From: Adineta vaga
Taxonomy: Eukaryota; Animalia; Rotifera
Direction of reading: 5' to 3'
DNA length: 64,000 nucleotides
NCBI GenBank assembly: GCA_021613535.1
Contig: CP075493.1
Coordinates: forward strand, 10,077,179-10,141,178
Shown: piece after piece, positions 6,494 to 27,445 of the stretch
Layout of the letters: each line of letters opens with the position of its first letter
Numbering within the stretch: position 1 is the stretch's first letter
The notes under the pieces: model-generated
Seen by the model: only the letters and a program-made list of their open reading frames with translations
The model's database searches: none
Told to the model about the DNA's origin: nothing
Translations under genes and position numbers: made by a program

Positions 6494-9400
6494 ATGACTC
6501 AACATGGACTTATCAATAGTGATACAGATGATAATCATAGACAAGATCAACTGGGTAAGTCATAGTAATTGTTTTGTTCTTTAAATGCAATTCAATATCT
6601 TCCGTTAAATATTTCTATATGAAAAAAAAACAAACAACATAATCAATATCAGATGTTGAAGTTTTTATCTTTTCATAGAATCGATGTCATCACAACCAAA
6701 TTCTCAACGTCGCCGTCGTGCAACAACACTAAATTCATTTGCTTCATCTGTTGTGACGAATATCGTTAAACGACCACGTTGGTGTTTTCGGTATGTATGT
6801 AGTACATGTGCGACATCTTGTGTTATGTTTCTTTTGATATCAAAAGATAATTTTGAGTTAAAGAGTCATCGATTAATCATCAATAGTATTTACTTGAAAA
6901 TATTTTCTTTCGAAAAAAAAGAAGAAGATTTTGTTTATCATGGTTAAGAATAACATTTCATTGGTTAAGCGTTATCAAATACATGTAAGAGATTCATTTT
7001 TCAATGTCTTGTCTCTTTCTGTCTGTTGTGCTTGTCAATATAAATCACCCCATTTTGATCATCCGATCAAAATTGTATTTTTATTGTTGTTCTTGAAACA
7101 TATCAAAGTCCTTGAGATGTTTTATTTATATGTATATAATGCAATTCTTAATAATAATAAGAACGCTTCGTTTTTCATTGATTCATCTAGGATGGAATGA
7201 AAAAAAAGCATAGATAACAACACACAATGTTACTAATAGCAGAAATAATCTCATGTTTTCATTTCATACGCCTTCATTTAGTATGTGTTCTATACATTGC
7301 ATAGGAACATTGAAAAAGATATTGAGACAATTATTTCTTTTCTTTTCGTTTCTTTTTTTTATTTTGAAGAATAGATAGAGATATTCAGTTAAGTATTCGA
7401 CCTCGAACGAACAATGTCATTCTTTCGTTGTTTTCTTCGAGTTAAGGACCGAATAAGAAGCAATTAAACGTTCAAATTAATCTGTTTTTTTCTTCTTCTT
7501 CTTCAAGAAATAATCGGAAAAATAAACAATATCATTCATCATAGATATTTTCTTTAGCCCACTTTCTTTTCTTTCCTATAGAGAACGACATACACACATA
7601 TTTCCTATCTGTTTTTTTTCCTTTCCAAAATTCTGTTTTGTTTCTTTCTTCTACTTGTCTTATATTCTCCGAAGAGAATAGTATCAAGAAATGCAATCAT
7701 TAGATTTCCTTTTTCCTCATGTGATTTGAGAGAAATGATGCATCTTTTTCTTATTAAATTGAAAATCGAGCTTGTCATACAATTCCACTTATCAAACATA
7801 TGCTACTCACCATCAATTTGTTTATCTTTTCTAGATCTGCTATTATTGTCTTCTGTCTACTAAATTGTTCCCTTACCTCATTTTTTTCCGTTTCATTTAT
7901 TCATATGTTTTGATAATTTCTTCTTTTGTATTAAACAATTACCAATATGTATGACGCAGGGGCGTATTTTTATAAAAAGTAAGCAGATTTTATTATCAAT
8001 TTAATTGAACCTTTAGGTGAAAAGAAAAACCATATGAAATAATGATAGGTTTGATTTCTCTTTCATACACACACTTTCTATTCCATCAGACAGGGTGTAC
8101 ATTCAATCTTTAATAAGAACAGATGGTTATTCTAATGACATATCAGGTAGATATGTATGATATTTATTCTAATATAACTAACTTTGGTTATTGAGAGCAT
8201 GAAACAACTAACAATAAACTAAGTGATACTATTACCTACATAAAATATTTATTTCTCATCTTGTTTTTATGTATAATTATCTTTATTTTACCTTTTTTTA
8301 AATATATATATAAAGACTAAATCAATCGACCATGAAGGTTTCTATCGTTCGATAATCGGCTGATGTATACCTTTCTCATACATTAAACATACCTCGTGAC
8401 TTAGAAAACAACAAAATAGAAGAGAAGAAAATATTTTTGTCATTTAACATGAGTTTTACGGAATGGGAGGAAGCAGTAACTGCACGAATAGGACATTATA
8501 TTACGAAATTAATACTATGGTTGGTCTAGAATTATATTCAGGTCTTTAATATTGTTTTTACTTCATTTATAGGTATTCAACATTCGTAGTTAAATATTCA
8601 TGGTGCTTCCTATTACTTGGATCGACCATATGTATTGGTCTTGGCTTATCAGCAGTACTATTACGAGATTTACCAGATTTCAATGATCCGACGAAAGTAA
8701 AATCGATTTTCATGTGTGTGTTCAATATGTATGCAAATCTATTTATTTGTAGGGTTTTATTCCACGTGGTAAGCATACATTAACATCACGTTTGTTTGTA
8801 TTGGAAAAATTAAAAAATGAACTGGATAAACAATTAGCGGCAGCAAGGATTATTAATAAGAGTAAATTATCTGTGGCAACAAAATCGCCTCTTTCAAGAA
8901 ATCAAATGAATACATACAACGATGACAATGATGATGATGATGATTTTGATTATGAAGATCCTGTCAGTATGATGAATCTTCTCGAAGATTTAAGATTTAA
9001 TCCAAATGATTGTGCCTTTTTATCACCAAGTCAAAATCAATGTTTAACTAATACACAGGTCTATTCATTATTACGAAATCGAACGGATCTTATGAAAATA
9101 TCGAAAAAAATTGAAAAACAACTTCACAAACCTAATGAACATATATGTACATCAATTGATCTAAGTATGTATTCATTCTTTTCATTAACTTCATGATAGT
9201 TATCAAGCATTTAATACGAATCTTAAAGAAAAAAGAATGGAATTTATACTTGTTTTTTTTCTTCTTAAGATCGTCATTATGAAGTCTATTTTGAAGCAAC
9301 TGATAGATCTTCTCCAAATTTATTATCACTTGATAATCTATTATCATTATGTAAAAAACAAACTGAACTTGTGAATCTATTTCAAGTTCATGCAACATGT

Positions 9401-12400
9401 CATTATACATTACCGGAAATGGTCGCGTATTTTGCTAATAAAACTGATTGTAATGAAATAACTGAAAAAGATATTCAATCATTCATCGTTCGTCTTCAAC
9501 GTTGTCATCAAATTTATGATTCTGGTTTAGTTCGTTTAGCTGGTTTAAAACGTTATCGAATGAAACCATTAGAATTATTTCAATATGATTCATGTTTTTA
9601 CAATAATTTTACCTTTCTTAGTTTGGAATATCTCTTAGATAAAACATTTCTAACAACAAATGAAACTTATTATACAGCTATGTGGTTTTTAAAACCAACT
9701 TTACCAATGAAAGATGTCAATGGTAGTGAAATTCATACATCTGATTCAGCTTATGATTTATTCATTCAACATTTTTATCGAAATTTTAAATTTGATGATA
9801 GACATACAAGAATAGCAGCATTGAATTTTTTGGATATTCGAATACCAACGGCAATGAAACAAATTCGTGTTGATATGTTTTTTGTTATTTTAGCTATTTC
9901 ATTAATTGTTGCCGTAAGTTGAGAAGAATTGATTTTGTTTTTCTTTCTTTTTTTACTATTGAAAATTCATTTAGGTTACTATAATTTATCTTCGTTCAAT
10001 AACTGTTGCTTTAATGACAAATATATGTGTTGTTCTTTCATTTGCTTGTGCATATTTTGCATATAAAATTATTCTTGGTATTGATCTTTTTCCATATATT
10101 AATTTGATGTCATCATTTATCTTAATTGGTATATCGTGTGATAATGTTTTTGTTATATTTGATGCATGGTATTCGGAAAAATTAGATATTTACAATGAAG
10201 CACGTTTACAAAATCGTCAAATTGAATTCTATGGTAAATTAACTGAAAAACAAGAAAAACAATATCGTCGTGATCGAGATTATACGTCGTCGATTGTTCG
10301 ACGACGTTTAACAGCAAAACATGATGCCGATCAGCCACCATTACAAGAAGGTGAAGAAGAAGAACATTTTGATTCAATTAAAAATACTGATCTTGTTCGA
10401 ATAATGAAAGTTAATGAAAATCAAATGATTCAAATGATGGAAGGTGTTCTGAGACATGCTGCTGCAAGTGTTTTTGTTACAAGTTTTACTACATCAGCTG
10501 CCTTTTTCACTAATATGATATCACGAATTGCTTACGTACAGTTATTTGGTTTATTTATGGTAAGTTCATTGATAATTTTATGGATAGTTTGAGATGGTCA
10601 AATTTGATTAGTCTTGTCAGTTGATACAATGAAATTGACGAAATACTATCGTATAAATTCTCATCAATTTTACTTTTTATTCATAGGGTCTTTGTATATT
10701 ATTTAATTTTCTAATGAACATAACTATGATTGTATCATTCGTGATAATCTATGAAAAATTTTGTGAACCCTTATCTGCACGTCTTGGTTTATTCAATCAT
10801 TTTCCTGATTTATTTGATAAAATTATGTTAACTTTAACACGTCTTAATCATGCAATTTTTACTGTTTATATTCCACGATTAATAATCAAGCTTCGTTTTA
10901 TTTTAATAATCATTTTCTTTATTCTCGGTGTCTCTGGTTTATTTCTCGTTTTTCATAATCCAAAATTAACTCCACCGAAATCTCGTCGATATCAATTCTT
11001 TCAATTAACACATCCATTTGAACGTTTTGAATATCAAATGCGTGATGAATTTCTATCATATATCAATGAAGATAAAGATAATGTAACCAATCCAGTGTTA
11101 ATATTTGCATTTGGAGTAGAAGAAACTGATTTAGTACATCCATTCTATCCTGATAAACAAAACTATGTTGATAATGAAACAATAATTTATAATAAAAAAA
11201 TTGATTTTTATGATCCAAAAGTATTACGATGGTTTGATACATTTCTAAAAGATCTTAATCGAAGTGAATTATTTACTAATGTACAAGAAACTTATGAACA
11301 ATGGTTAACTATTGGTAAGAAATAGATAAAATATTAATTTACTTCATATTTATGATTGTTTAGGCAGTTTATTACGTGGATTTTTGAATACAAATGCAAG
11401 AAATTATTCTCCATTTAGTGAAAATGAATTTTTTGTACCACCAACACGAAATGCAACCAAAATTGCAATGAATCGTTTATTTAAATTCTTTAGTGAATCC
11501 AATCAACTTGCATCCGGAGGTGATAGTAATCGTGGTAGTGTTGATTTTCGTCTGGGATTTTTACCCGATGCTAAAACACGTAATTTACGTGCCTTCATAT
11601 TTATCGTGAATATGAATGTTACATTTAATACATATACTGTTCAACATGATTATTATAAAAAGTTACACGATTATTTTGAACAACGTTTACAACAATTAAA
11701 ACTTTCGGAAGGTGTTCATGGACATGTTTATGAACAAGTTAAACACGGGTAGGAAAACTTTCGAAGCGTTCGTTTGTCGATCTTTTCTACGGAGTCAAAA
11801 CTTATGGAGAGATTCATTTTCATTTAAAACACATACTTATGATGTTCTTTTTGTTTTAGTTGGTTTGTTTCACCTCAATTTTTATTCTATGATTTAATGC
11901 GTGAAGTTATACGTGGAACCTATACATCTTTAATATTTTCAATGGTCTTTGCTTTTGTTGTACTTCTTTTGACTTCTGGAAATATTATTATAACATTATA
12001 TGCTATTCTAACAATTATATTTATCATTGCTGATACAGTTGGAATCTTTGTTTTATGTGGATGGGAATTAAGTATTCTTGAAACAATTATTATTATAATG
12101 AGTGTCGGTCTCAGTGTTGATTTTAGTAAGATTGAATAACGAATAACTTTTTCTAATCTATTCATTTCATTTTCTATTAGCTGTACATTATGGTGTTGCT
12201 TATATAAAAGCAGATTGGAAAAGAAATCAAGCACATAGTCGACGAACATCTAATGCATTGAAACTTCTTCATTCAACAAATGCAAATCCAGACGAACATT
12301 TTTCAATAGAACAAGTTTCTGAGCAACAAAAAACTCAACCAACTAAACCGTCAATATTTACTCGTATGAAAATTTGGCATCGACGAGGCAATCTTCAACG

Positions 12401-12798
12401 ATTTCGTCGAATTAAAAATAGTCTTATTCGTGTTGGATCAGCTGTCTTCATAGCTAGTTTAACTTCCTTTCTTGCTGGTGTATCAATGGCACCAAGCAAA
12501 TTAACATCATTTTCTCAAATGGGTTATTTTCTTATGTTAATTATGTTTGTTAGTTGGTTATATGCTACATGGTTCTTTCTTCCATTACTTTCATTTCTTG
12601 GACCAATTGATAAATTTGGTGATATACCGTAAGTGATATTTTTCTCTACGTAATCATTTCTATTTTTTGAAAACTAGATTTGGTAAATTATTTCGTTGTG
12701 GTAAAACGTCATCTTTACCTGTCATACAAACAGTAACAACTAATGACGATGACCAGCTACAATCAAAAGAGAAATTCACTGACGGACAAGCACTTTAG
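6494..12798 (+). CDS. Dispatched-like sterol-sensing-domain (RND/Patched superfamily) transporter, at least 12 exons. The first two exons are 6494..6556 and 6684..6790, followed by a roughly 1.8 kb intron, then exons from 8569 to 12798.
   Basis: N-terminus is ...RPRWCFR|YSTFVVKYSWCFLLLG...LPDFNDPTKGFIPRGK, Dispatched-like. Sterol-sensing-domain signature LIGISCDNVFVIFDAW. Second TM bundle with SVGLSVDFS..HYGVAY. All junctions have GT..AG with consistent phase. Stop TAG at 12796-12798. Confidence 0.8.
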
Positions 12799-13448
12799 TT
12801 CATCTTTTTTCTTTCGTTTTTATACCACTTGTCTTTCGTTAATCTCGAAAAGAAATATCTAAATTAACATCCATTGAAACATCTTTCTCTAGGTGCTGTT
12901 TTGTAGTTGAATCAGATAATCGCCTTTTTTTGGTATTTAGAAACCAAAGATAAGAAATATCTTCCTAATTGTCTTCTGCATTTCTTTTCCTCTCTTTTGG
13001 TTGGACACGTGCAATAAACATACATACAACTTTCAATCGTCTACATACGTGTCTTCGTTGTTTTCTTCTTTTTCTTCTTCATTTCATCTTATTTTATTAG
13101 AGAATGTTTGCTTTTCTTCTAAATGTATCCATGCATGTCTGTATTGTTGTTTTTTTACTCATTTTAAATGTATGTATTCTGTCAAATGTTGGTAGTCGTA
13201 AAAAATATTCTAATTAATAGTGGTAAATTTTGTCTTCAATTTCGTTTGTCTTCCTTATCTTTGAGTAAAATATATTCTATGATTATGTTTATAAACGAGT
13301 TATTTGAAATTTTATGAATTATTTTGTGATTAGTTAATTACTATGTGTAGTTTAGTTGAATATTATTATATGTATATGTTTTCTTAATTGAAACCAAACT
13401 ACTTCATGATATGAATATATTTCGTTATTAAGAAAAAAACAAAATGTT

Positions 13449-14662
13449 TTAATTTTGAGCAAGTTCATGAATTTTCTTTATGAATTGATCAATATCATCT
13501 TCAGTTGTATCAAATGAACACATTAATCTAACTTCACAATTTTTTCTTCTCCACATATAAAATGGAAAGATTGCAGATAAAGGTTCATACCATTCTCGAG
13601 GAATTTCTAAAAAAATTGCACCGGTTTGAACGGGTTTCGTTATACGTATCAATGATTTATTATTCTTCAAAGGAATTGATTCCAAACGTTTTTTTAATAA
13701 TTGTGCCATGGAATTCGAATGTTCACTTGATTTTTTCCATAGATTATTTTGAAGTAAAGTTAAAAATTGCACAGCTATAAATCGTTGTTTAGAAGCTAAT
13801 TGCATGACTTGTTTATGACGAAATTTTAATGGATCATTGGTATCACCACCAGCTTTAAGTAATGATGGATTGAAAACAATTACTGCTTCACCATACATCA
13901 TACCAGCCTAGATAGAAGAGATGTTTATATTGATTAAGTTTTTAATTTGATGAAATATTTACTTTAGTACCACCTAATGAAAGAATATCAACTCCGACAG
14001 CTGTTGTTATATCTTGAAGATTACAATTCAATGATGAAACTGCATTGAATAAACGTGCACCATCCATATCTAGAATGAAATTTGAGTAAGAATTATCTTT
14101 AGAAAAAGGAAAAGGTTTTTTTACGAAAATATAAATTATTTTTCTTTGCTAAGGCAGATAATTGTTTAAGTTCATCGATTGTATAGACTGTTCCATATTC
14201 CGTTGGTTGTGCAATTGATATCATTCTCGGTTGAGCAGCATGCATATCACCAATACAATCAAGTTTTTCTTCGATTTTCTCCAAAATTATTTTACCATTT
14301 TCATCTGTTGGTATTGATATTAATCGTACACCAGTGACAGTTTCTGGTGATGATGATTCATCCGTAATTATATGTGAAATATCCGAACAAATGACAGCAT
14401 GATATGAATGTGTGCAAGCAAGTATTGACAATACATTAGCACCAGTACCATTAAAAACAAAAAAGACGCCAGGTATTGAATCATCATCTTCTGAAGAATT
14501 AAAGACTTGTTTAATAACATGTCGTGCTTCTTCAGTAATATCATCATGACCATAGGCACGTGCATGTGATCTTGATTGAGCTTCTTTCACTAATGCAGAC
14601 ATTATTTCAGGTAATACTCCAGCATAATTATCCGATGCAAACGTACGTAATATATTCGTCAT
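13449..14662 (-). CDS. Low-specificity L-threonine aldolase, bacterial LtaA-type (PLP-dependent, Beta_elim_lyase family), 3 exons: 14099..14662, about 13905..14080, 13449..13900.
   Basis: N-terminus MTNILRTFASDNYAGVLPEIMSAL...FVFNGTGANVLSIL...HVDGARLFNAV...GGTK. It is collinear with Pseudomonas-type LtaA (FASDNYSG...FAFNGTAAN...HMDGARF..GGTKNG). Two short GT..AG introns. Confidence 0.85.
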
Positions 14663-15628: not shown

Positions 15629-16231
15629 TTATTCTTGTTCATCATCTTCATCATCCTCTTCATCGTCATCGCCACTTTCATTGGCACCGGACGCGGCAGC
15701 AGCAGCAGCAGCTCTTCGAGGATTCGATTTACCAGCAGATGCTTTTGAATCTCCTAAAAACACAACTCAGTGTAAGCAATATGACTTTCTTGTTAATAAA
15801 TTATTTACCTTCATCTTCACCATTTTCTCCAGTATCATCTTCGTCATAATCATCATCAGAAGCATCATCCTCATCGTAATCATCACCTTCTTGATCACCA
15901 CCGACTACCTGTAAAATGCAAGGAAAAGATTTCTAGTTCTTATCTTTCATATTCTCTTTCAAATCACATACGTCATCATCATCTTCATCGTCGTCATCGT
16001 GTAAATGTTCATCTCCATTTTTATGATTCGAAGATTCATCGTCAACTGGTCCATCACCATTTGTTCCATTACGTGCAGCCTTCAAAGCTTTCAATTTTGT
16101 TGGACTTATATCATCTAATTCCGCTTCACGCTTTGTGCCTAGACAAGAGAATTAATGTAGATACTTCAAGGTAATAGATCATGATTTACCTTTGGTAGGC
16201 GTTACAGTTGGTACGGATAGTGCATCAGTTG
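15629..16231 (-). CDS. Small, highly acidic protein of unknown function, 4 short exons.
   Basis: ATG at 16229-16231. Exons reconstructed as MADSTDALSVPTVTPTK | GTKREAELDDISPTKLKALKAARNG...DDDDEDDDD | VVGGDQEGDDYDEDDASDDDYDEDD... | GDSKASAGKSNPRRAAAAAAASGANESGDDDEEDDEDDEQE*. Phases are consistent across three roughly 50-60 nt introns. Confidence 0.5.
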
Positions 16232-19151: not shown

Positions 19152-19879
19152 TTAATCTCGTGGTACATCAACTTGACCATTATTAATTTGGTTAATAACA
19201 TCATGTGGATGTGAACCTTCTACTTTGCAACCAACTGATTGAGCTGTGCCTGGAAAAGAAAGAACGAAAAAAACACAATAAAATATCGATAGTTTTATTA
19301 ATAGATATACCAAGAATTTCTTTCACTGTTCCGTCGAATGTTTTGGCTAATGATCTTACACGCATAACTCGGGCGATTTTATAAATTTCATCAAGTGAAA
19401 TATTGCCATCATGTTTAACTAAATAATTAATAATAAATAAAAATAGAAGTTTAGTTTCCAACAGATTTCTACTGACTATTTTTTTGTTTCTTTCGATCAC
19501 GTGGTGGTTCTTTAAGTGCTTTGATAACAAGTGATGATGCTGATGGAATAACATCAATTTTAGCATTACGATTTTGGACAGTTAATTTGACTGTTACACG
19601 CATGCCTTTCCAGTCACCTGTTGCTTTAGCAATATCATCACCCACTTTTTTTGGTGACTATGCATAACCAAAATATATAAAGGATTTTCATTGAGCAAAA
19701 CAAGAATTACTTACGAGACCGAGAGGACCGATCTTTGGAGCTAATGATGAGCCACCAGGTGCTTCACCACCGGTCACACGGACCATGACTAAAGATAAAA
19801 AAAATATAAAACCAAATCAAAGAAAATTGAAAGTTGATTTACTTTCATAAACGGCTGTTGGATCAAATTTTGGACCCAT
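19152..19879 (-). CDS. RPL12: 60S ribosomal protein L12 (uL11), about 4 exons.
   Basis: [12 protein letters not shown] | ...[151 protein letters not shown]. Near-identical to the eukaryotic L12 consensus. Confidence 0.9.
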
Positions 19880-22020: not shown

Positions 22021-24307
22021 ATTTGTACGATGTTTTATAATATATTGAATATATGAGAAAAAACAACAGGGCAGTTATCTGAAATAGAATGAAGATTATT
22101 TCTTAGACTTTATTTCTCTCAATTTTCTTTCTCTCTCTCTCTTCGTCAGTTTTATAGATAGCCGAGCTAATTAAAGATTATCAAACATGACAGACAAGCG
22201 TAATACGTTTTATATAAGAAAAACTCCAAGTAGGCGAAAAGATAATAGGAAAAAAAACAATAATTTACTCATTAAAAATAATCTTTTCTATCACAAAATT
22301 GACATTTATAGAAATCCAGACGAGTATTTATCTTATAATAATATATAGTTAACGCAATGGTTAAATGCATTTATTTCTATTCAGTCAACAATATTTAACA
22401 ACTGAGGTTCTACTCATAAAAAAAATATATAGTCGAACAATATACCTTTGTCTAAAGAAAGTTCATTGAATGGATCTGTTTAGCATCATACAGGAACTTA
22501 TATAGAAAAACGTAGAAGACTATCAGTCAGCTACACCTGCTTTGTTTAAAAAGGCGTTAAAAGAAATGAGAGAGAGAGAGAGAAAAATGTATAAGAGGAA
22601 AATACTTTTTATCTATAATTATTTAGCCAATTGACAAGAACGTTTATGAAAACTATATACGCTTCGATGAAACTCTTTTGTTAAAAAAAATCTAATATTC
22701 TATCAGATAAAAAAAAACCGAATAAATCGGATAGATATTCGTATAGTGCAATATAGTTTCATTGAGCTTTAGAATAAACTGGTGTGTATAATCAAGTTTG
22801 CGGGAAAAGGTGTACATCTATTATGTTACTTGTTAAAGATGATCCTTTTGGATTTAATATCCTAATAAACTTCGTTAGATGTATAATATAATGACGAGAG
22901 AATAGAAAAGTGTAAGATAATGATGAATACACAATTTATGTAGTTACCACATATTTCAAGAGTTGCATTGACGTAAGAGAAATCATTGTAATCTAAATAA
23001 CTCTTCAAAAAAAGAATGTTTTAATGTCCTCGACAATATCGAATTCCTTCCGTAAGAACATTATCATCAAAAAAACTAAATGATTAACTCTATTATATAA
23101 AAATATATAGTAAAACTATCATTTAATTTTCTAATAGTTACCTATGACAATACAATTAACGAAAAGAAATTATATTGCGTAGATGCATGTTCCTAAAAAC
23201 GATTTTGTTTTATCTATGATTTCTCTTCTCAATTGATAGAAAAATATTCATGATATTCTCCTCTCACTTACTTATTTCCATTTCCGATAACAAATGCACT
23301 TTTGTTATATTTTAGAGAGCAAAATCAAATATGGAACACAAAATGTTTTGATTTACCTTACAAAAAAAAATCATACTACTTTCATCTATTTTCTCTTTCT
23401 TTTGAGTGGGCTGAATACTCTCTGCTTCCATTCTTGCATCCATAAGCGGACATTTCATCGGAAGTCAATCTTTTACTAATGTTGATATCAAGTGATTGCC
23501 TATGAAACAACATTTTGTTGATTACAAAGACATAAAACAGATCTTTTTTGCGACGGCAAATAATGCAACTTTCTTTTTTCAGATTATATGAATATCAACG
23601 TGCATATTCAACATATAGAGTACTTTAAGTTGCATGTAATTTATCTCAAGAAGCAATGCTTGCATTTAATTAAGATAAAACTACAAAAAGTTTCTGAAAC
23701 CTACTTATATCGATGACGATGACGTAAACCAATTGACACTAAATGACCTAAATTTCAACATATACGATTTCTGTTTGTTTTTATTCGAATAGTGTTTTGA
23801 GAATATAATGTCATCAACGTAGAGTAGTATCGTTAGTATATCTGGAGGGTATACTATTTATTGTTGGGTTAAAAAAACCTGACTCCATTACTAAGATTAG
23901 TGATTGCGTTTGCATGTGTATTCAATAGATAATAAATAATTGAATACTTTTTATCCTCTACATATGAATGTGGTTGATCAAAAATCAAATTATACAAGGA
24001 CTGATGTGAATTTTTGTACTTTATGACTTAACAAATGTTGGGAAGAAACGATTTTATAAATAAGAAGTGAAACGCCTTACGTAGGGCTCAATAAAAATGA
24101 GTTTTTTAATTAAAAATCTATTTATAATGTAATCAATTGATCTTTTCAACTAAGATTAATTTCGAAATACGAAATAGTATTGAAATTTAGGATATCTGTT
24201 ATCAATGTAAATCGATGTTTTAATCGTCCAGAAATATCAAACATTGTATATAAATAGAACAGAAAAAAAACATTTCATCAAAACGATACACACTTTCTAT
24301 TTTATCC

Positions 24308-26519
24308 ATGAAAGTAAAGAATAGAACTCAGCGTTCATCTCGTACTCATCGACATCAACTTTCACATATTCATGCTTGGATTAAATATAAATCAGATAAT
24401 ATATTTTCAGCAGGTCCTGTAGTAATCATTCCTATTCTTGCTCTAATATCTATATGTCTTATTCTGATTTTCTCATCATTATATCTTTGGAGTGGAGAAG
24501 CCAATACATATTCGCAATCATTATGGGAAACATTCATGCGTACACTTGGTTTGAAAGAATTGTTGGTGTTTGCTTCTTTTTTGAATGAAAATCTTTTCTA
24601 GATCCTGGTTCTGCTGCTGAGGATACGGGAGGAATTCATCGATTTATTTCGGCAACAGTGACTATGTGTGGAATTTTTATTATATCAACATTGATCGGAG
24701 CATTAACAACAGGTATGGAAGGTAAATTAGCTGAATTACGGAAAGGACGCACCAGAGTCATTGAAACCAATCATACAAGTACATTAATTCTATTGAAAAA
24801 GAAAAGATGTCATTTTTTTAATTAATTCTTCTAGTTATACTCGGTTGGTCAGCAAAAATCTTTGATATAATCAATGAATTAAGCATTGCCAATGAAAATC
24901 AATCGAATCCATCGATTGTTATTTTAGCTTCGAAAGATCGTATTGAAATGCAAGAAATAATTACACAAAAAATTGATCGAAAACATCATAACACGAAAAT
25001 TATCTGTCGAAATGGCGATCCAATGTCTATTCATGATTTAAATATTCTCTCACCGAATCATGCACGATCAATAATTATCTTAGCACCAACCAATGAGAAT
25101 CCTGATGTAAGTGTTATTAAAACAATCTTAGCCATTACAAATAATCCTCAACGAACGAAATCAAAATTTCATATTGTTGCAGAAATTAAAGAACGTAATA
25201 ATATTGAAGTAGCACGTATTGCTGGTGAGAATAATTGTATATCAAATGATCAAAAAAATTCAATTGAAATCACTTTCTAGGTGCAGATGAAGTCGTTTTT
25301 GTTCATGCTGATGAAATTATCGCCAGAATTATAGCACAAAGCGGTCGTCAATCTGGTTTATCTGTCATTTTATCGATGTTACTTTCATTTAATTATAGTG
25401 AAATTTATTTCAAATCAGAACCATTATTAATTGGAAAAACATTTCATGAAATTCTATTTCTCTATCGTACAAGTACTGTCATCGGTCTGATGTTTGCGGA
25501 TGAAACAATCAAAATTTCTCCATCATCAGATACAATTCTTCAAGAAAATGATCAAATTATTGTTATTGCAGAAGATGATGATGCAATTATTTTACAAACA
25601 AGTTCTCCGTTAATCTATCCTTCAATATCTGCCTTAGTTCAAACAGATATTTCTGTTAAACCATCAATGAATATCAAACAAACAGATATAGAAAAAAATA
25701 TCATTCTTGGATGGAATTCTAAAGCATCTCTAATCGCTAAACAATTGGATAATTATGTGTCTGAAGGAAGTGAATTACATATTTTAACAAATATTGATAA
25801 AGCAACGAAAATTATAACCGAACAATTAGTAAATGAATTACAACGACAAAAGATTTATTTACATTCGGGTGATATTACTAATCGAAATGATTTAGAAAAA
25901 CTAAATTTGTAAATGAAATAAATTTCGTTTGTTTTTTCTTAATTAAAATTCTTTCTTTACTAGATATACTTATCATGATGTTATTCTTCTTGCAAATGAT
26001 ATTAGTAATGAACAAAAACATCAATTAGAAATGAATTCATCTGAAGCAGCTGATGCAGAATGTTTAATTTGTCTATTACATTTACGAAATTTAATCGATA
26101 AAAATCCTCGTCAAAAAACATTCAGTATTGTTACAGAAATGTTCGATATACGAAATCGAGAATTAGCCGAAATTACACGTGCAGATGATTTTATTGTTAG
26201 TCCAAATATTCTTTCGAAATATATTGCACAAATTAGTGAAAATAAAAATCTAACAAAAGTATTTGATGTTCTATTAACAGCAGATGGAGTAGAAATCTAT
26301 CTTCGACCGATTTCATTATTTACAAAACTAGGTATACCGGTTTCATTTAGTCGAATATTAGAAGCATCACTTAAACAACAAACATTAGCAATTGGATATC
26401 GACAAATGAAATATGCACAAGATCCAAATAAATTCTATGGAATAGTTTTAAATCCTGATAAAGACATTTCAATTATCTTTCGACATGATGATAGAATTAT
26501 TGTTCTCGCAGAAGAATAG
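24308..26519 (+). CDS. CASTOR/POLLUX/DMI1-like 2-TM ion channel with tandem RCK (TrkA-N) domains, at least 6 exons.
   Basis: TM1, pore helix (SLWETFMRTL | DPGSAAEDTGG) and TM2 are followed by ELRKGRTRVIETNHTVILGWSAKI...ICRNGDPMSIHDLNILSPNHARSIIILAP...AQSGRQSGLSVILSMLLSF..YFKSEPLLIGKTF..IIVIAEDDD. This is collinear with plant CASTOR (SLRKGRSEVVEQNHTLILGWSDKL...ARQPGLAQIWEDILGF...). Confidence 0.8.
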
Positions 26520-27445
26520 TTTAATATTGATCTATGTTCTCTATATAATAATAAAATCGTCTGAATTGATAACTTCTATTTATTTTTATTTGAATATTTC
26601 ATGATGTAGAACGGTATTTCTCGGTAAACGATCGAACTATTGTTGATTTGTTCGAAGTCTTATGAAATAAATGCTCACGATGAACTGCGCATTCATATCA
26701 ATCTAAGGAAAAATAAAGTCTAACATACCTTGAAGATTGTTTGCAGTTGATCCGATAAAGAACAACAGACGAATGGGAAAGTTAACACACACACATATAT
26801 ATATATAAGGAGTATGTTAATGAAACCTTCTTGATTTATTGTATTTCAAAAGAGTACTTGCCTAGAAAATATCTTCATTATTATTTATATGAATGATCTG
26901 TTCCTCGATTGGATGCCTTGAAAGTTTATATAGAACATAAAATTAATATAAATTTCTTTTTCTATAGACAGTTCATTTGTTATATATATATTAATTGATG
27001 GATTTTTGTTGTCTAAAATGAACTAGTCCTCCCACACGATGAATTATCTCTTTGCATGTTAGAATGTTTGATCTATGGATCTAAAGTCTATTTCTTTTAT
27101 CTTCGATCATAAATTATTCAGATTCATCATTTATATGTTTGTATGTATCACTTCGCCTTTTAATAACATGTTAACAAAAGTACCTAATTTACCTTTTTTT
27201 GAGTATTCGATTGTAATCGGCGTAGGTGTTTTCTCATTATCAAAGCTTTAAACCTTATAAATTTTTCATCTTGATGAGTTTTGATGTATCATATGTCATT
27301 TGTTTAGTTTCAAAAGATGATTTATTTTTCTCAACAGAGAAATCGTCTAATCTAATATTCATATTATCAAAAATAACCTTGAGTATCAGTCTATTTTCGA
27401 TGAAATTTCCAATCACAGCTTCGTTTTTATTTAAGAAAATGTTTA

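What the first reader, a model, noticed from the sequence alone, without database searches (positions are those of the whole stretch)
13449..14662. Bacterial LtaA-type threonine aldolase carrying spliceosomal introns, a candidate horizontally acquired gene
The protein belongs to the FASDNYxG subfamily of low-specificity L-threonine aldolases, typified by Pseudomonas LtaA. It is not the LtaE/GLY1/Tha1 type that animals and fungi normally carry. Yet it has two short GT..AG introns and sits between bona fide metazoan genes (Dispatched on one side, an acidic nuclear-type protein on the other). That argues against contamination. It is a candidate horizontal acquisition.
Basis: partly seen in the sequence, partly recalled or inferred. 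Interest (0 to 1): 0.55.

Follow-up and report, generated by a model that had tools for sequence, protein, structure and literature searches.

The report
Bacterial threonine aldolase in a rotifer
This is a real, intact gene for a bacterial-type threonine-cleaving enzyme that bdelloid rotifers (here Adineta vaga) took from Bacteroidota bacteria long ago and fitted with introns; it is a clear but ordinary case, because about a tenth of bdelloid genes arose this way.

Summary
On the minus strand, 14662-13449 holds a three-exon gene with two 55-nt GT..AG introns. It encodes a 367-aa PLP-dependent aldolase of the Pseudomonas LtaA / 5VYE type, not the LtaE / GLY1 / Tha1 type. The window is Adineta vaga, a bdelloid rotifer: the product is 100 % identical to I4U23_003235 on an 18 Mb scaffold.

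Orthologues occur in Adineta, Rotaria and Didymodactylos, and no other animal appears among the best 120 database hits. The nearest other relatives are Chitinophagaceae (Bacteroidota) at 50-57 % identity. In bootstrapped distance trees the bdelloid sequences form one clade (97-98 %) inside a Bacteroidota assemblage.

Contamination is excluded. Intron positions and phases, and adjacency to a Dispatched-like gene, are conserved across four species assemblies and one metagenome contig. GC3 follows each host genome, dN/dS is 0.08-0.33, and every catalytic and pocket residue is kept. A transcript-like contig from a related bdelloid lacks both introns.

The horizontal-transfer reading is supported. 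However, roughly 10 % of bdelloid genes are foreign and mostly ancient, so this is a new member of a known kind. One question stays open: Didymodactylos lacks the shared introns, insertions and synteny, so a second independent capture is not excluded.

The parts
14125..14662 (-). Exon 1 (codons 1-179 plus the first base of codon 180). Contains the FASDNYAG motif (residues 8-15), H97, H141 and E155.
   Evidence: alignment to 5VYE
14070..14124 (-). Intron 1: 55 nt, GT..AG, phase 1, GC 0.24. It splits the LYF|HMDGAR motif.
   Evidence: Same position and phase in A. ricciae, A. steineri and Rotaria sp. and in L007. Absent from the transcript-like contig L008.
13963..14069 (-). Exon 2 (codons 180-215). 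Contains D182 and R185, and ends with the PLP-binding lysine K215 (codon 13965-13963).
13908..13962 (-). Intron 2: 55 nt, GT..AG, phase 0, GC 0.20. It lies immediately after the GGTK lysine codon.
13449..13907 (-). Exon 3 (codons 216-367 plus the TAA stop at 13451-13449). Contains Y332 and R342, and two lineage-specific loop insertions.
8792..12800 (+). Context: the 3' two-thirds of a multi-intron Dispatched-like (Patched SSD) gene, convergent with the aldolase gene. Its last intron is 12629-12677 (49 nt).
   Evidence: The same adjacency is seen in L001, L003, L004 and L007.
15629..16100 (-). Context: the upstream neighbour, a small and extremely acidic protein gene (about 146 aa, three introns in the A. 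ricciae model). No Pfam family.
19155..19870 (-). Context: ribosomal protein uL11/RPL12, an undoubted host gene, with 58-, 61- and 66-nt GT..AG introns. This is the same intron size class as in the aldolase gene.

Best explanation
A gene for a PLP-dependent, LtaA-type low-specificity L-threonine aldolase passed from a Bacteroidota bacterium, most likely a Chitinophagaceae-like lineage, into the bdelloid rotifer germ line. This happened before Adineta and Rotaria diverged, and probably before Didymodactylos split off. The gene has since been domesticated: two spliceosomal introns of host-typical size were inserted precisely into the coding sequence, four short surface-loop insertions accumulated, and codon composition drifted to the AT-rich host norm. 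It has been kept under purifying selection next to a Dispatched-like gene. The inferred enzyme holds PLP as a Schiff base on K215. With H97 stacking on the cofactor and acting as base, and H141 positioning the beta-hydroxyl, it cleaves L-threonine or L-allo-threonine (and possibly other beta-hydroxy-alpha-amino acids) into glycine plus acetaldehyde. The N-terminus starts where the bacterial proteins start, with no obvious targeting extension, so it is probably cytosolic. Shown here: gene structure, homology, phylogenetic placement, synteny, selection and residue conservation. Inferred: the donor's identity below phylum level, the single timing of the transfer, the catalytic activity and substrate range, and expression in A. 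vaga itself.
For: Identity and host: 100 % match to A. vaga I4U23_003235 on an 18.1 Mb scaffold. Taxon distribution: the only named eukaryotes in the best 120 of 5.8 billion proteins are bdelloids (A. ricciae 85 %, Rotaria 80-81 %, A. steineri 79 %, Didymodactylos 58 %). Everything else is bacterial or metagenomic at 52-57 % identity. The best 80 GTDB genome loci are nearly all Chitinophagaceae / Chitinophagales (Taibaiella, Flavipsychrobacter, Rurimicrobium), and a bacterial locus carries a T9SS Por_Secre_tail neighbour. Trees: bdelloids are monophyletic at 97-98 %; bdelloids plus the Chitinophagaceae-like clade get 83 %; further outgroups are Bacteroidota. Integration: intron positions and phases are identical in four species and in L007. 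Dispatched adjacency is conserved. Host genes in the window have 49-66-nt introns. Amelioration: GC3 is 0.15 in A. vaga (window GC 0.30) and 0.37 in A. ricciae (locus GC 0.36), against 0.39 in a bacterial relative. Function retained: dN/dS is 0.08-0.33. PpTA residues A9, Y13, H89, H133, E147, D174, R177, K207, Y312 and R321 correspond to A9, Y13, H97, H141, E155, D182, R185, K215, Y332 and R342, all conserved. The AlphaFold model has pLDDT 85 and pTM 0.86, with TM 0.86 to 5VYE, and low confidence only in the lineage-specific insertions. Splicing: contig L008 (Logan SRR22100213, 73 % identical orthologue, Illumina adapter at its end) reads through both intron sites and through the Dispatched 49-nt intron site.
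Against: The trees are neighbour-joining on corrected p-distances, not likelihood with site-heterogeneous models. The exact bacterial sister is weakly supported (44 %). Bdelloid monophyly drops to 70 % under Dayhoff-6 recoding. Didymodactylos scores higher against bacteria (461-496 bits, 59-63 %) than against other bdelloids (about 444 bits), has one intron at a different site, lacks the four shared insertions and lacks the Dispatched adjacency. No expression data for A. vaga itself were available, and no enzyme assay exists.
Confidence: 0.85

Rival explanations
1. There were two independent captures. Didymodactylos carnosus and the Adineta+Rotaria lineage each acquired the aldolase separately from closely related Chitinophagaceae-like donors. 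The apparent bdelloid monophyly would then be an artefact of AT-driven amino-acid convergence and shared ancestral states.
For: Didymodactylos has a different single intron (codon 35, phase 1) and none of the two shared ones. It lacks all four Adineta/Rotaria insertions and has different neighbours. Its best non-self hits are bacterial, and no other bdelloid appears in its top 120. Monophyly falls to 70 % with recoding, and 16 % of replicates place Didymodactylos inside the bacterial clade. The residues it shares with other bdelloids (HARAYG, QPTEYG, DGAR) are also found in outgroups, so they are ancestral states.
Against: Bdelloid monophyly is 97-98 % in three separate samplings, including one enlarged with Didymodactylos' own best hits. 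No bacterial sequence exceeds 63 % identity to it. Faster evolution in the Adineta/Rotaria stem explains the score asymmetry. Intron gain after the split and loss of synteny over a deep divergence are both expected.
Confidence: 0.15
2. The gene was inherited vertically from an ancient eukaryotic LtaA-type gene and lost in almost all other animals.
For: LtaA-type enzymes do occur in some eukaryotes, for example Leishmania major 1SVV. The gene has introns, host codon usage and stable synteny.
Against: Leishmania 1SVV is much more distant (E = 2e-35, 29-30 % identity) than Chitinophagaceae (over 400 bits, 50-57 %). The bdelloid clade sits within Bacteroidota sequences. No non-bdelloid animal appears among the best hits. 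The canonical animal enzyme, mouse Tha1 8PUM, is only 18 % identical. The introns interrupt an otherwise gap-free alignment to the bacterial proteins, as expected for later insertions.
Confidence: 0.03
3. The gene is bacterial contamination or a chimeric assembly.
For: The closest non-rotifer relatives are all bacterial.
Against: There are two spliceosomal introns of host size. GC3 of 0.15 matches the host. The gene lies 0.8 kb from a multi-intron Dispatched-like gene on an 18 Mb scaffold. The same arrangement appears in four other independent assemblies.
Confidence: 0.01
4. The origin is as in the main explanation, but the physiological reaction differs. The enzyme might act mainly on another beta-hydroxy-alpha-amino acid (as a phenylserine-type aldolase) or in the synthetic direction, rather than degrading threonine.
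For: P. putida phenylserine aldolase 1V72 belongs to the same tier (E = 7e-53, TM 0.85). The family is known for broad substrate range (PMC9922994). Four lineage-specific loop insertions could affect the oligomer interface or the pocket entrance.
Against: The best match is the low-specificity L-TA 5VYE. All five PpTA pocket residues (A9, Y13, H133, E147, Y312) are identical. The insertions are in low-confidence surface loops.
Confidence: 0.2

Closest known systems
Pseudomonas putida low-specificity L-threonine aldolase (PDB 5VYE) and P. aeruginosa PA5413 'ltaA'; the same tier includes 7W0I, 7YVR and phenylserine aldolase 1V72
   Same: Full-length alignment (E = 2e-67; 36-38 % identity; model TM 0.86, rmsd 2.2 A). 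Same FASDNY N-terminal motif. The PLP lysine, both catalytic histidines, the Asp/Arg of HxDGAR, the C-terminal Arg and the five pocket residues are all conserved.
   Different: It is encoded in an animal chromosome with two introns. It is 20-27 residues longer because of four loop insertions. It is closer to Chitinophagaceae homologues (50-57 %) than to the Pseudomonas enzymes. Activity has not been measured.
Chitinophagaceae (Taibaiella, Flavipsychrobacter, Rurimicrobium) 'low specificity L-threonine aldolase' genes
   Same: These are the nearest non-rotifer relatives (50-57 % to A. vaga, 59-63 % to Didymodactylos). They are collinear apart from the insertions, and form the sister or enclosing group in the trees.
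   Different: They are intron-free genes of 339-346 aa in bacterial operon-like contexts, with GC3 about 0.39.
Foreign (horizontally acquired) genes of bdelloid rotifers as a class (Gladyshev et al. 2008; Boschetti et al. 2012; Nowell et al. 2024, PMC11258130)
   Same: Bacterial origin, linkage to metazoan genes, acquired introns, ameliorated composition, and orthologues shared across bdelloid genera, which implies an ancient transfer. This matches the reported pattern that about 10 % of genes are foreign and mostly ancient.
   Different: No paper in the searchable library, and no held supplement of two key papers, names this enzyme in bdelloids. It lies next to conserved core genes rather than in an obviously foreign-gene-rich block.
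Candidate L-threonine aldolase acquired laterally by plant-parasitic nematodes (Meloidogyne, Globodera)
   Same: An independent report of a bacterial threonine aldolase gene in an animal genome, listed among lateral transfers with 'as yet unknown function' (PMC3511272, PMC5664098).
   Different: It is a different animal phylum and presumably a different donor. I could not obtain the nematode sequence, so whether it is LtaA-type or related to the rotifer gene was not tested.
Canonical animal, fungal and enterobacterial threonine aldolases (mouse Tha1 8PUM, E. coli LtaE 4LNJ, T. maritima 1JG8)
   Same: Same fold type I PLP architecture and same reaction class (TM 0.72-0.79).
   Different: Only 17-20 % identity. 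The sequence match is limited to residues 36-222. The NCBIfam LtaE equivalog scores 56.7 bits against a cut-off of 312.

Membership tests
LtaA-type (5VYE / PA5413-like) low-specificity L-threonine aldolase subfamily of Pfam PF01212 | Beta_elim_lyase (PF01212) domain spanning the protein | tested here: met
   E = 5.4e-44, residues 8-297, 151 bits against a cut-off of 27
LtaA-type (5VYE / PA5413-like) low-specificity L-threonine aldolase subfamily of Pfam PF01212 | Full-length similarity to characterised LtaA-type enzymes that exceeds the similarity to LtaE-type enzymes | tested here: met
   5VYE 2e-67, 7W0I 4e-54, 7YVR 7e-54 and 1V72 7e-53, against 4LNJ 5.5e-12. Foldseek TM is 0.84-0.86 against 0.72-0.79.
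LtaA-type (5VYE / PA5413-like) low-specificity L-threonine aldolase subfamily of Pfam PF01212 | N-terminal FASDNY motif | tested here: met
   FASDNYAG at residues 8-15. F8, S10 and N12 are nearly invariant in alignment A1.
LtaA-type (5VYE / PA5413-like) low-specificity L-threonine aldolase subfamily of Pfam PF01212 | PLP-binding lysine and catalytic residues (PpTA H89, H133, D174, R177, K207, R321) and pocket residues (A9, Y13, E147, Y312) | tested here: met
   They map to H97, H141, D182, R185, K215 and R342, and to A9, Y13, E155 and Y332. All are conserved (residue roles from PMC9922994).
LtaA-type (5VYE / PA5413-like) low-specificity L-threonine aldolase subfamily of Pfam PF01212 | Retro-aldol cleavage of L-threonine / L-allo-threonine to glycine plus acetaldehyde | not testable with these tools
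   Needs a recombinant enzyme assay.
LtaE / GLY1 / Tha1-type threonine aldolase | Score above the NCBIfam equivalog threshold, or close similarity to E. coli LtaE or mouse Tha1 | tested here: not met
   NF007825 scores 56.7 bits against a cut-off of 312. Identity to 4LNJ and 8PUM is 18 %.
GntG family PLP-dependent aldolase (NF041359) | Score above the family threshold | tested here: not met
   75.5 bits against a cut-off of 230, and only a partial match to residues 66-204
Horizontally acquired (foreign) gene of bdelloid rotifers | Closest relatives outside bdelloids are non-metazoan | tested here: met
   A formal alien index was not computed, because no non-bdelloid metazoan hit was retrieved for comparison.
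Horizontally acquired (foreign) gene of bdelloid rotifers | Phylogeny places the animal sequences within or beside a donor clade | tested here: met
   The bdelloid clade has 97-98 % support. It groups with the Chitinophagaceae-like clade at 83 %, with Bacteroidota outgroups. These are distance trees only.
Horizontally acquired (foreign) gene of bdelloid rotifers | Physical linkage to bona fide metazoan genes, and eukaryotic gene structure | tested here: met
   Dispatched-like neighbour 0.8 kb away, uL11 5 kb away, two spliceosomal introns, and synteny in five assemblies.
Horizontally acquired (foreign) gene of bdelloid rotifers | Expressed and spliced | tested here: inconclusive
   The transcript-like contig L008 from a related bdelloid lacks both introns and a Dispatched intron. 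The run's metadata could not be checked, and no A. vaga RNA data were available.

The most novel reading that the evidence does not exclude
The same Chitinophagaceae-type threonine aldolase was captured twice, once in the Didymodactylos lineage and once in the Adineta+Rotaria ancestor. That would be repeated, convergent acquisition of one bacterial enzyme by related asexual animals, implying a recurrent selective demand (for example glycine supply or threonine/acetaldehyde handling) rather than a one-off accident. Under either history the locus also gives a datable series of three precise intron gains in a gene that was certainly intron-free at entry.
Probability: 0.15. Interest if true: 0.4.

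Novelty: new member of a known kind. Interest (0 to 1): 0.25.

Why it matters
As a single gene it matters little. It adds one well-documented metabolic enzyme to the long list of bacterial genes domesticated by bdelloid rotifers. Its value is as an unusually clear worked example, because every stage of domestication can be read at one small locus. The donor lineage is identifiable to family level. Two introns inserted precisely after the split from Didymodactylos but before the Adineta/Rotaria split, and one arose independently in Didymodactylos. Loop insertions accumulated, composition was fully ameliorated, selection is purifying, and synteny is stable. It could therefore serve as a calibration case for intron-gain timing in foreign genes, and as a test of single versus repeated capture. 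It also parallels the laterally acquired threonine aldolase reported in plant-parasitic nematodes, which hints that this enzyme is easy for animals to adopt.

Tried and rejected
1. An exact look-up of the A. vaga protein's contig found nothing on record, so A. vaga context comes from the window only.
2. A literature search for 'bdelloid' plus 'threonine aldolase' found only nematode or method papers. Supplement searches of Boschetti 2012 and Nowell 2024 for threonine aldolase, PF01212 and Beta_elim_lyase were empty. I cannot say whether published HGT lists already include the gene.
3. A strict four-group site-pattern test (Adineta/Rotaria, Didymodactylos, close bacteria, outgroups) gave only 3: 0: 2 informative sites and is uninformative.
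4. Pfam on the acidic neighbour returned nothing, so 'nuclear-type' could not be confirmed.
5. I considered whether the MMPL/Patched-like RND gene 4 kb from the aldolase in a bacterial locus could mean co-transfer with the rotifer Dispatched-like gene. I rejected this. The rotifer gene's best solved relatives are animal Dispatched proteins, it has many introns, and RND transporters are common in bacteria.
6. I did not test whether bdelloids also keep a canonical Tha1-type gene. No rotifer genome could be searched directly, and a database search seeded with Tha1 would list only its many close relatives.
7. My first splice-site script used a wrong anchor string; this was corrected.

Full report
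OBSERVATION. The finding's coordinates are exact. On the minus strand an ATG at 14662 opens a 538-nt exon. Two further exons follow (14069-13963 and 13907-13449), separated by two introns of 55 nt each: 14124-14070 (phase 1) and 13962-13908 (phase 0). Both introns begin with GTAAA and end with TCTAG. Removing them yields an uninterrupted 1104-nt CDS of 367 aa ending in TAA. Intron 2 sits immediately after the codon of the PLP-binding lysine (GGTK|AG). CDS GC is 0.32 and GC3 is 0.15, in a window of GC 0.30.

WHAT THE PROTEIN IS. Pfam gives Beta_elim_lyase PF01212 at E = 5e-44. Among solved structures, the full-length best matches are P. putida L-threonine aldolase 5VYE (2e-67), M. vanbaalenii 7W0I, Neptunomonas 7YVR and P. 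putida phenylserine aldolase 1V72. Leishmania 1SVV follows at 2e-35. E. coli LtaE, Aeromonas L-allo-TA, T. maritima TA and mouse Tha1 match only weakly and partially. The NCBIfam LtaE equivalog scores 56.7 bits against a threshold of 312. An AlphaFold model built from a 15-sequence alignment has pLDDT 85 and pTM 0.86. Foldseek reproduces the two tiers: TM 0.84-0.86 at 29-38 % identity for the 5VYE group, and TM 0.72-0.79 at 17-20 % for the LtaE/Tha1 group.

Residue mapping through the 5VYE alignment and the multi-species alignment covers three sets of PpTA residues:
- PpTA H89 (stacks on PLP; proposed base) and H133 correspond to H97 and H141.
- D174, R177, K207 and R321 correspond to D182, R185, K215 and R342.
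- Pocket residues A9, Y13, E147 and Y312 (roles from PMC9922994) correspond to A9, Y13, E155 and Y332.
All are conserved in the rotifer protein.

WHOSE GENOME. The spliced product is 100 % identical to 'hypothetical protein I4U23_003235 [Adineta vaga]' on an 18.1 Mb scaffold. The window is thus from a bdelloid rotifer chromosome.

NEIGHBOURS. Downstream and convergent lies a multi-intron Dispatched-like gene. It has a Patched SSD domain, and its best PDB hits are human DISP1 and Drosophila Dispatched. Upstream is a small, very acidic, multi-intron gene with no Pfam family. About 5 kb away is ribosomal protein uL11/RPL12, whose introns are 58, 61 and 66 nt. The last Dispatched intron is 49 nt. 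The aldolase introns are therefore of ordinary host size.

DISTRIBUTION AND ORIGIN. Among 5.8 billion proteins, the hits above 57 % identity are all bdelloid: A. ricciae 85 %, Rotaria spp. 80-81 %, A. steineri 79 %, an unnamed SRA contig 73 % and Didymodactylos carnosus 58 %. Everything after that is bacterial or metagenomic at 52-57 %, and the named ones are Sphingobacteriales, Chitinophagales, Taibaiella and Flavipsychrobacter. A scan of GTDB species genomes returned 80 best loci that are almost all Chitinophagaceae / Chitinophagales at 43-56 %. One such locus has a T9SS Por_Secre_tail neighbour.

I ran bootstrapped neighbour-joining trees on three samplings:
- 158 sequences including 50 %-identity representatives from 1.8 billion proteins.
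- 247 sequences, enlarged with Didymodactylos' own best hits.
- 41 sequences from named genomes.
All recover a bdelloid clade (97-98 %). It groups with the Chitinophagaceae-like clade (83 %; 44 % in the small named set) and lies within a grade of other Bacteroidota: Cyclobacteriaceae/Cytophagales, Olivibacter, Mucilaginibacter and a Bacteroidota/Kapabacteria representative. This is the pattern expected for transfer from Bacteroidota into bdelloids, not for vertical metazoan inheritance.

INTEGRATION AND DOMESTICATION. Solving the exon structure of each orthologue exactly shows both introns at the same codon and phase in A. vaga, A. ricciae, A. steineri and Rotaria sp. Silwood1. A 54-kb metagenome contig from a further bdelloid-like organism (L007) has the same three-exon layout and the order uL11 - kinase - aldolase - Patched. 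Adjacency to the Dispatched-like gene holds in all of these. The alignment to bacterial proteins has no gap at either junction, so the introns are precise insertions into a once continuous ORF. Adineta and Rotaria share four short insertions that are absent from bacteria. These coincide with the only low-confidence loops of the model. GC3 follows each host genome: 0.08-0.15 in AT-rich species and 0.37 in A. ricciae. Pairwise dN/dS is 0.08-0.33. Contig L008 (Logan assembly of SRR22100213) begins with an Illumina adapter tail. It carries the 73 %-identical orthologue as one ORF across both intron sites, and it also reads through the site of the 49-nt Dispatched intron. Its simplest reading is a spliced-mRNA contig, that is, indirect evidence of expression and correct splicing in a related species. 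The run's metadata could not be checked.

THE OPEN POINT. Didymodactylos carnosus is an outlier. It has one intron at codon 35, none of the four insertions and different neighbours (RAB3GAP2 nearby). Its bit scores are higher to Chitinophagaceae proteins than to other bdelloids. Monophyly with the other bdelloids is 97-98 % with plain residues but 70 % after Dayhoff-6 recoding, and a strict site-pattern test was uninformative. I favour one ancient acquisition followed by accelerated change in the Adineta/Rotaria stem. I leave about 15 % for two captures from related donors.

MECHANISM. By homology the product is a fold-type-I PLP enzyme. An internal aldimine forms on K215, followed by transaldimination with the amino acid. 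H97 abstracts the beta-hydroxyl proton, assisted by H141, and C-alpha-C-beta cleavage releases acetaldehyde and a glycine quinonoid. R185 and R342 bind the carboxylate, and D182 contacts the pyridine nitrogen. This rests on established knowledge of threonine aldolases and on PMC9922994. Activity, substrate range and cellular role in rotifers are inferred, not shown. A phenylserine-type or broader specificity remains possible.

COMPARISON AND NOVELTY. Bdelloid genomes are known to carry about 10 % foreign genes, mostly ancient and shared among species (PMC11258130). Bacterial-type threonine aldolase has also been listed as a lateral acquisition in root-knot and cyst nematodes (PMC3511272, PMC5664098). 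I found no paper or held supplement naming this enzyme in bdelloids. The finding is therefore a sound new member of a well-known kind. It is not an anomaly, and its interest is modest.

VERDICT. Contamination and vertical descent are effectively excluded. I give 0.85 confidence to an ancient transfer from Bacteroidota into bdelloids of a functional LtaA-type aldolase. Interest is 0.25.

Noticed in passing
window 51235-55668 (+): Three long ORFs lie in a row (461, 357 and 561 aa). The first has a Sacsin / HATPase_c_3 domain (PF25794, 9e-16). The third has a full-length DarT ssDNA thymidine ADP-ribosyltransferase domain (PF14487, 7.7e-16, profile 1-201 of 201). DarT is a bacterial toxin-type domain, so finding it in a rotifer chromosome may mark a second foreign or defence-like gene.
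   Followed up: partly
window 57757-59204 (-): Two adjacent, apparently intron-less ORFs (258 and 220 aa). The second has a weak Polbeta nucleotidyltransferase match (4.9e-5, below the Pfam threshold). Their origin is unknown.
   Followed up: partly
window 24300-26520 (+); also L004 1-1065: A Castor/Pollux-type ion-channel gene (PF06241 9e-18 plus TrkA_C). The same family is present near the aldolase locus in A. ricciae, so the wider neighbourhood is syntenic.
   Followed up: partly
L008 (Logan SRR22100213), whole 2298-nt contig: This transcript-like contig joins the aldolase mRNA and the 3' end of the convergent Dispatched-like mRNA through a 632-nt inter-stop region. If it is cDNA, the two convergent transcripts overlap or read through at their 3' ends.
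   Followed up: partly
L007 (ENA ERZ26165376 metagenome contig, 54.6 kb): A bdelloid-like contig with the same uL11 - kinase - aldolase - Patched order. Its GC is 0.50, far above the 0.27-0.36 of the sequenced bdelloid loci. The source organism is unknown.
   Followed up: no
window 13963-13965 / 13962: Intron 2 is inserted in phase 0 directly after the codon of the catalytic PLP lysine (GGTK|AG). Intron 1 splits the conserved HMDGAR motif. Both introns thus lie in the most conserved parts of the protein.
   Followed up: yes
P0125 (JGI metagenome, 1053-nt contig) and P0233: These are fragments 72 % and 60 % identical to the A. vaga protein. P0125 spans residues 179-365 without interruption at the intron-2 site, so it is either a metatranscript or a lineage lacking intron 2.
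   Followed up: no
L005/L006 11033-13023: In a Chitinophagaceae-like bacterial locus, an MMPL/Patched-like RND transporter lies 4 kb from the aldolase gene. This is a superficial echo of the rotifer aldolase-Dispatched adjacency, and I judge it coincidental.
   Followed up: partly
window 43153-44226 (+) and 29142-30059 (-): An intron-less rhodopsin-family GPCR ORF (PF00001, 2e-15), and a 305-aa ORF with long polyglutamine runs.
   Followed up: no
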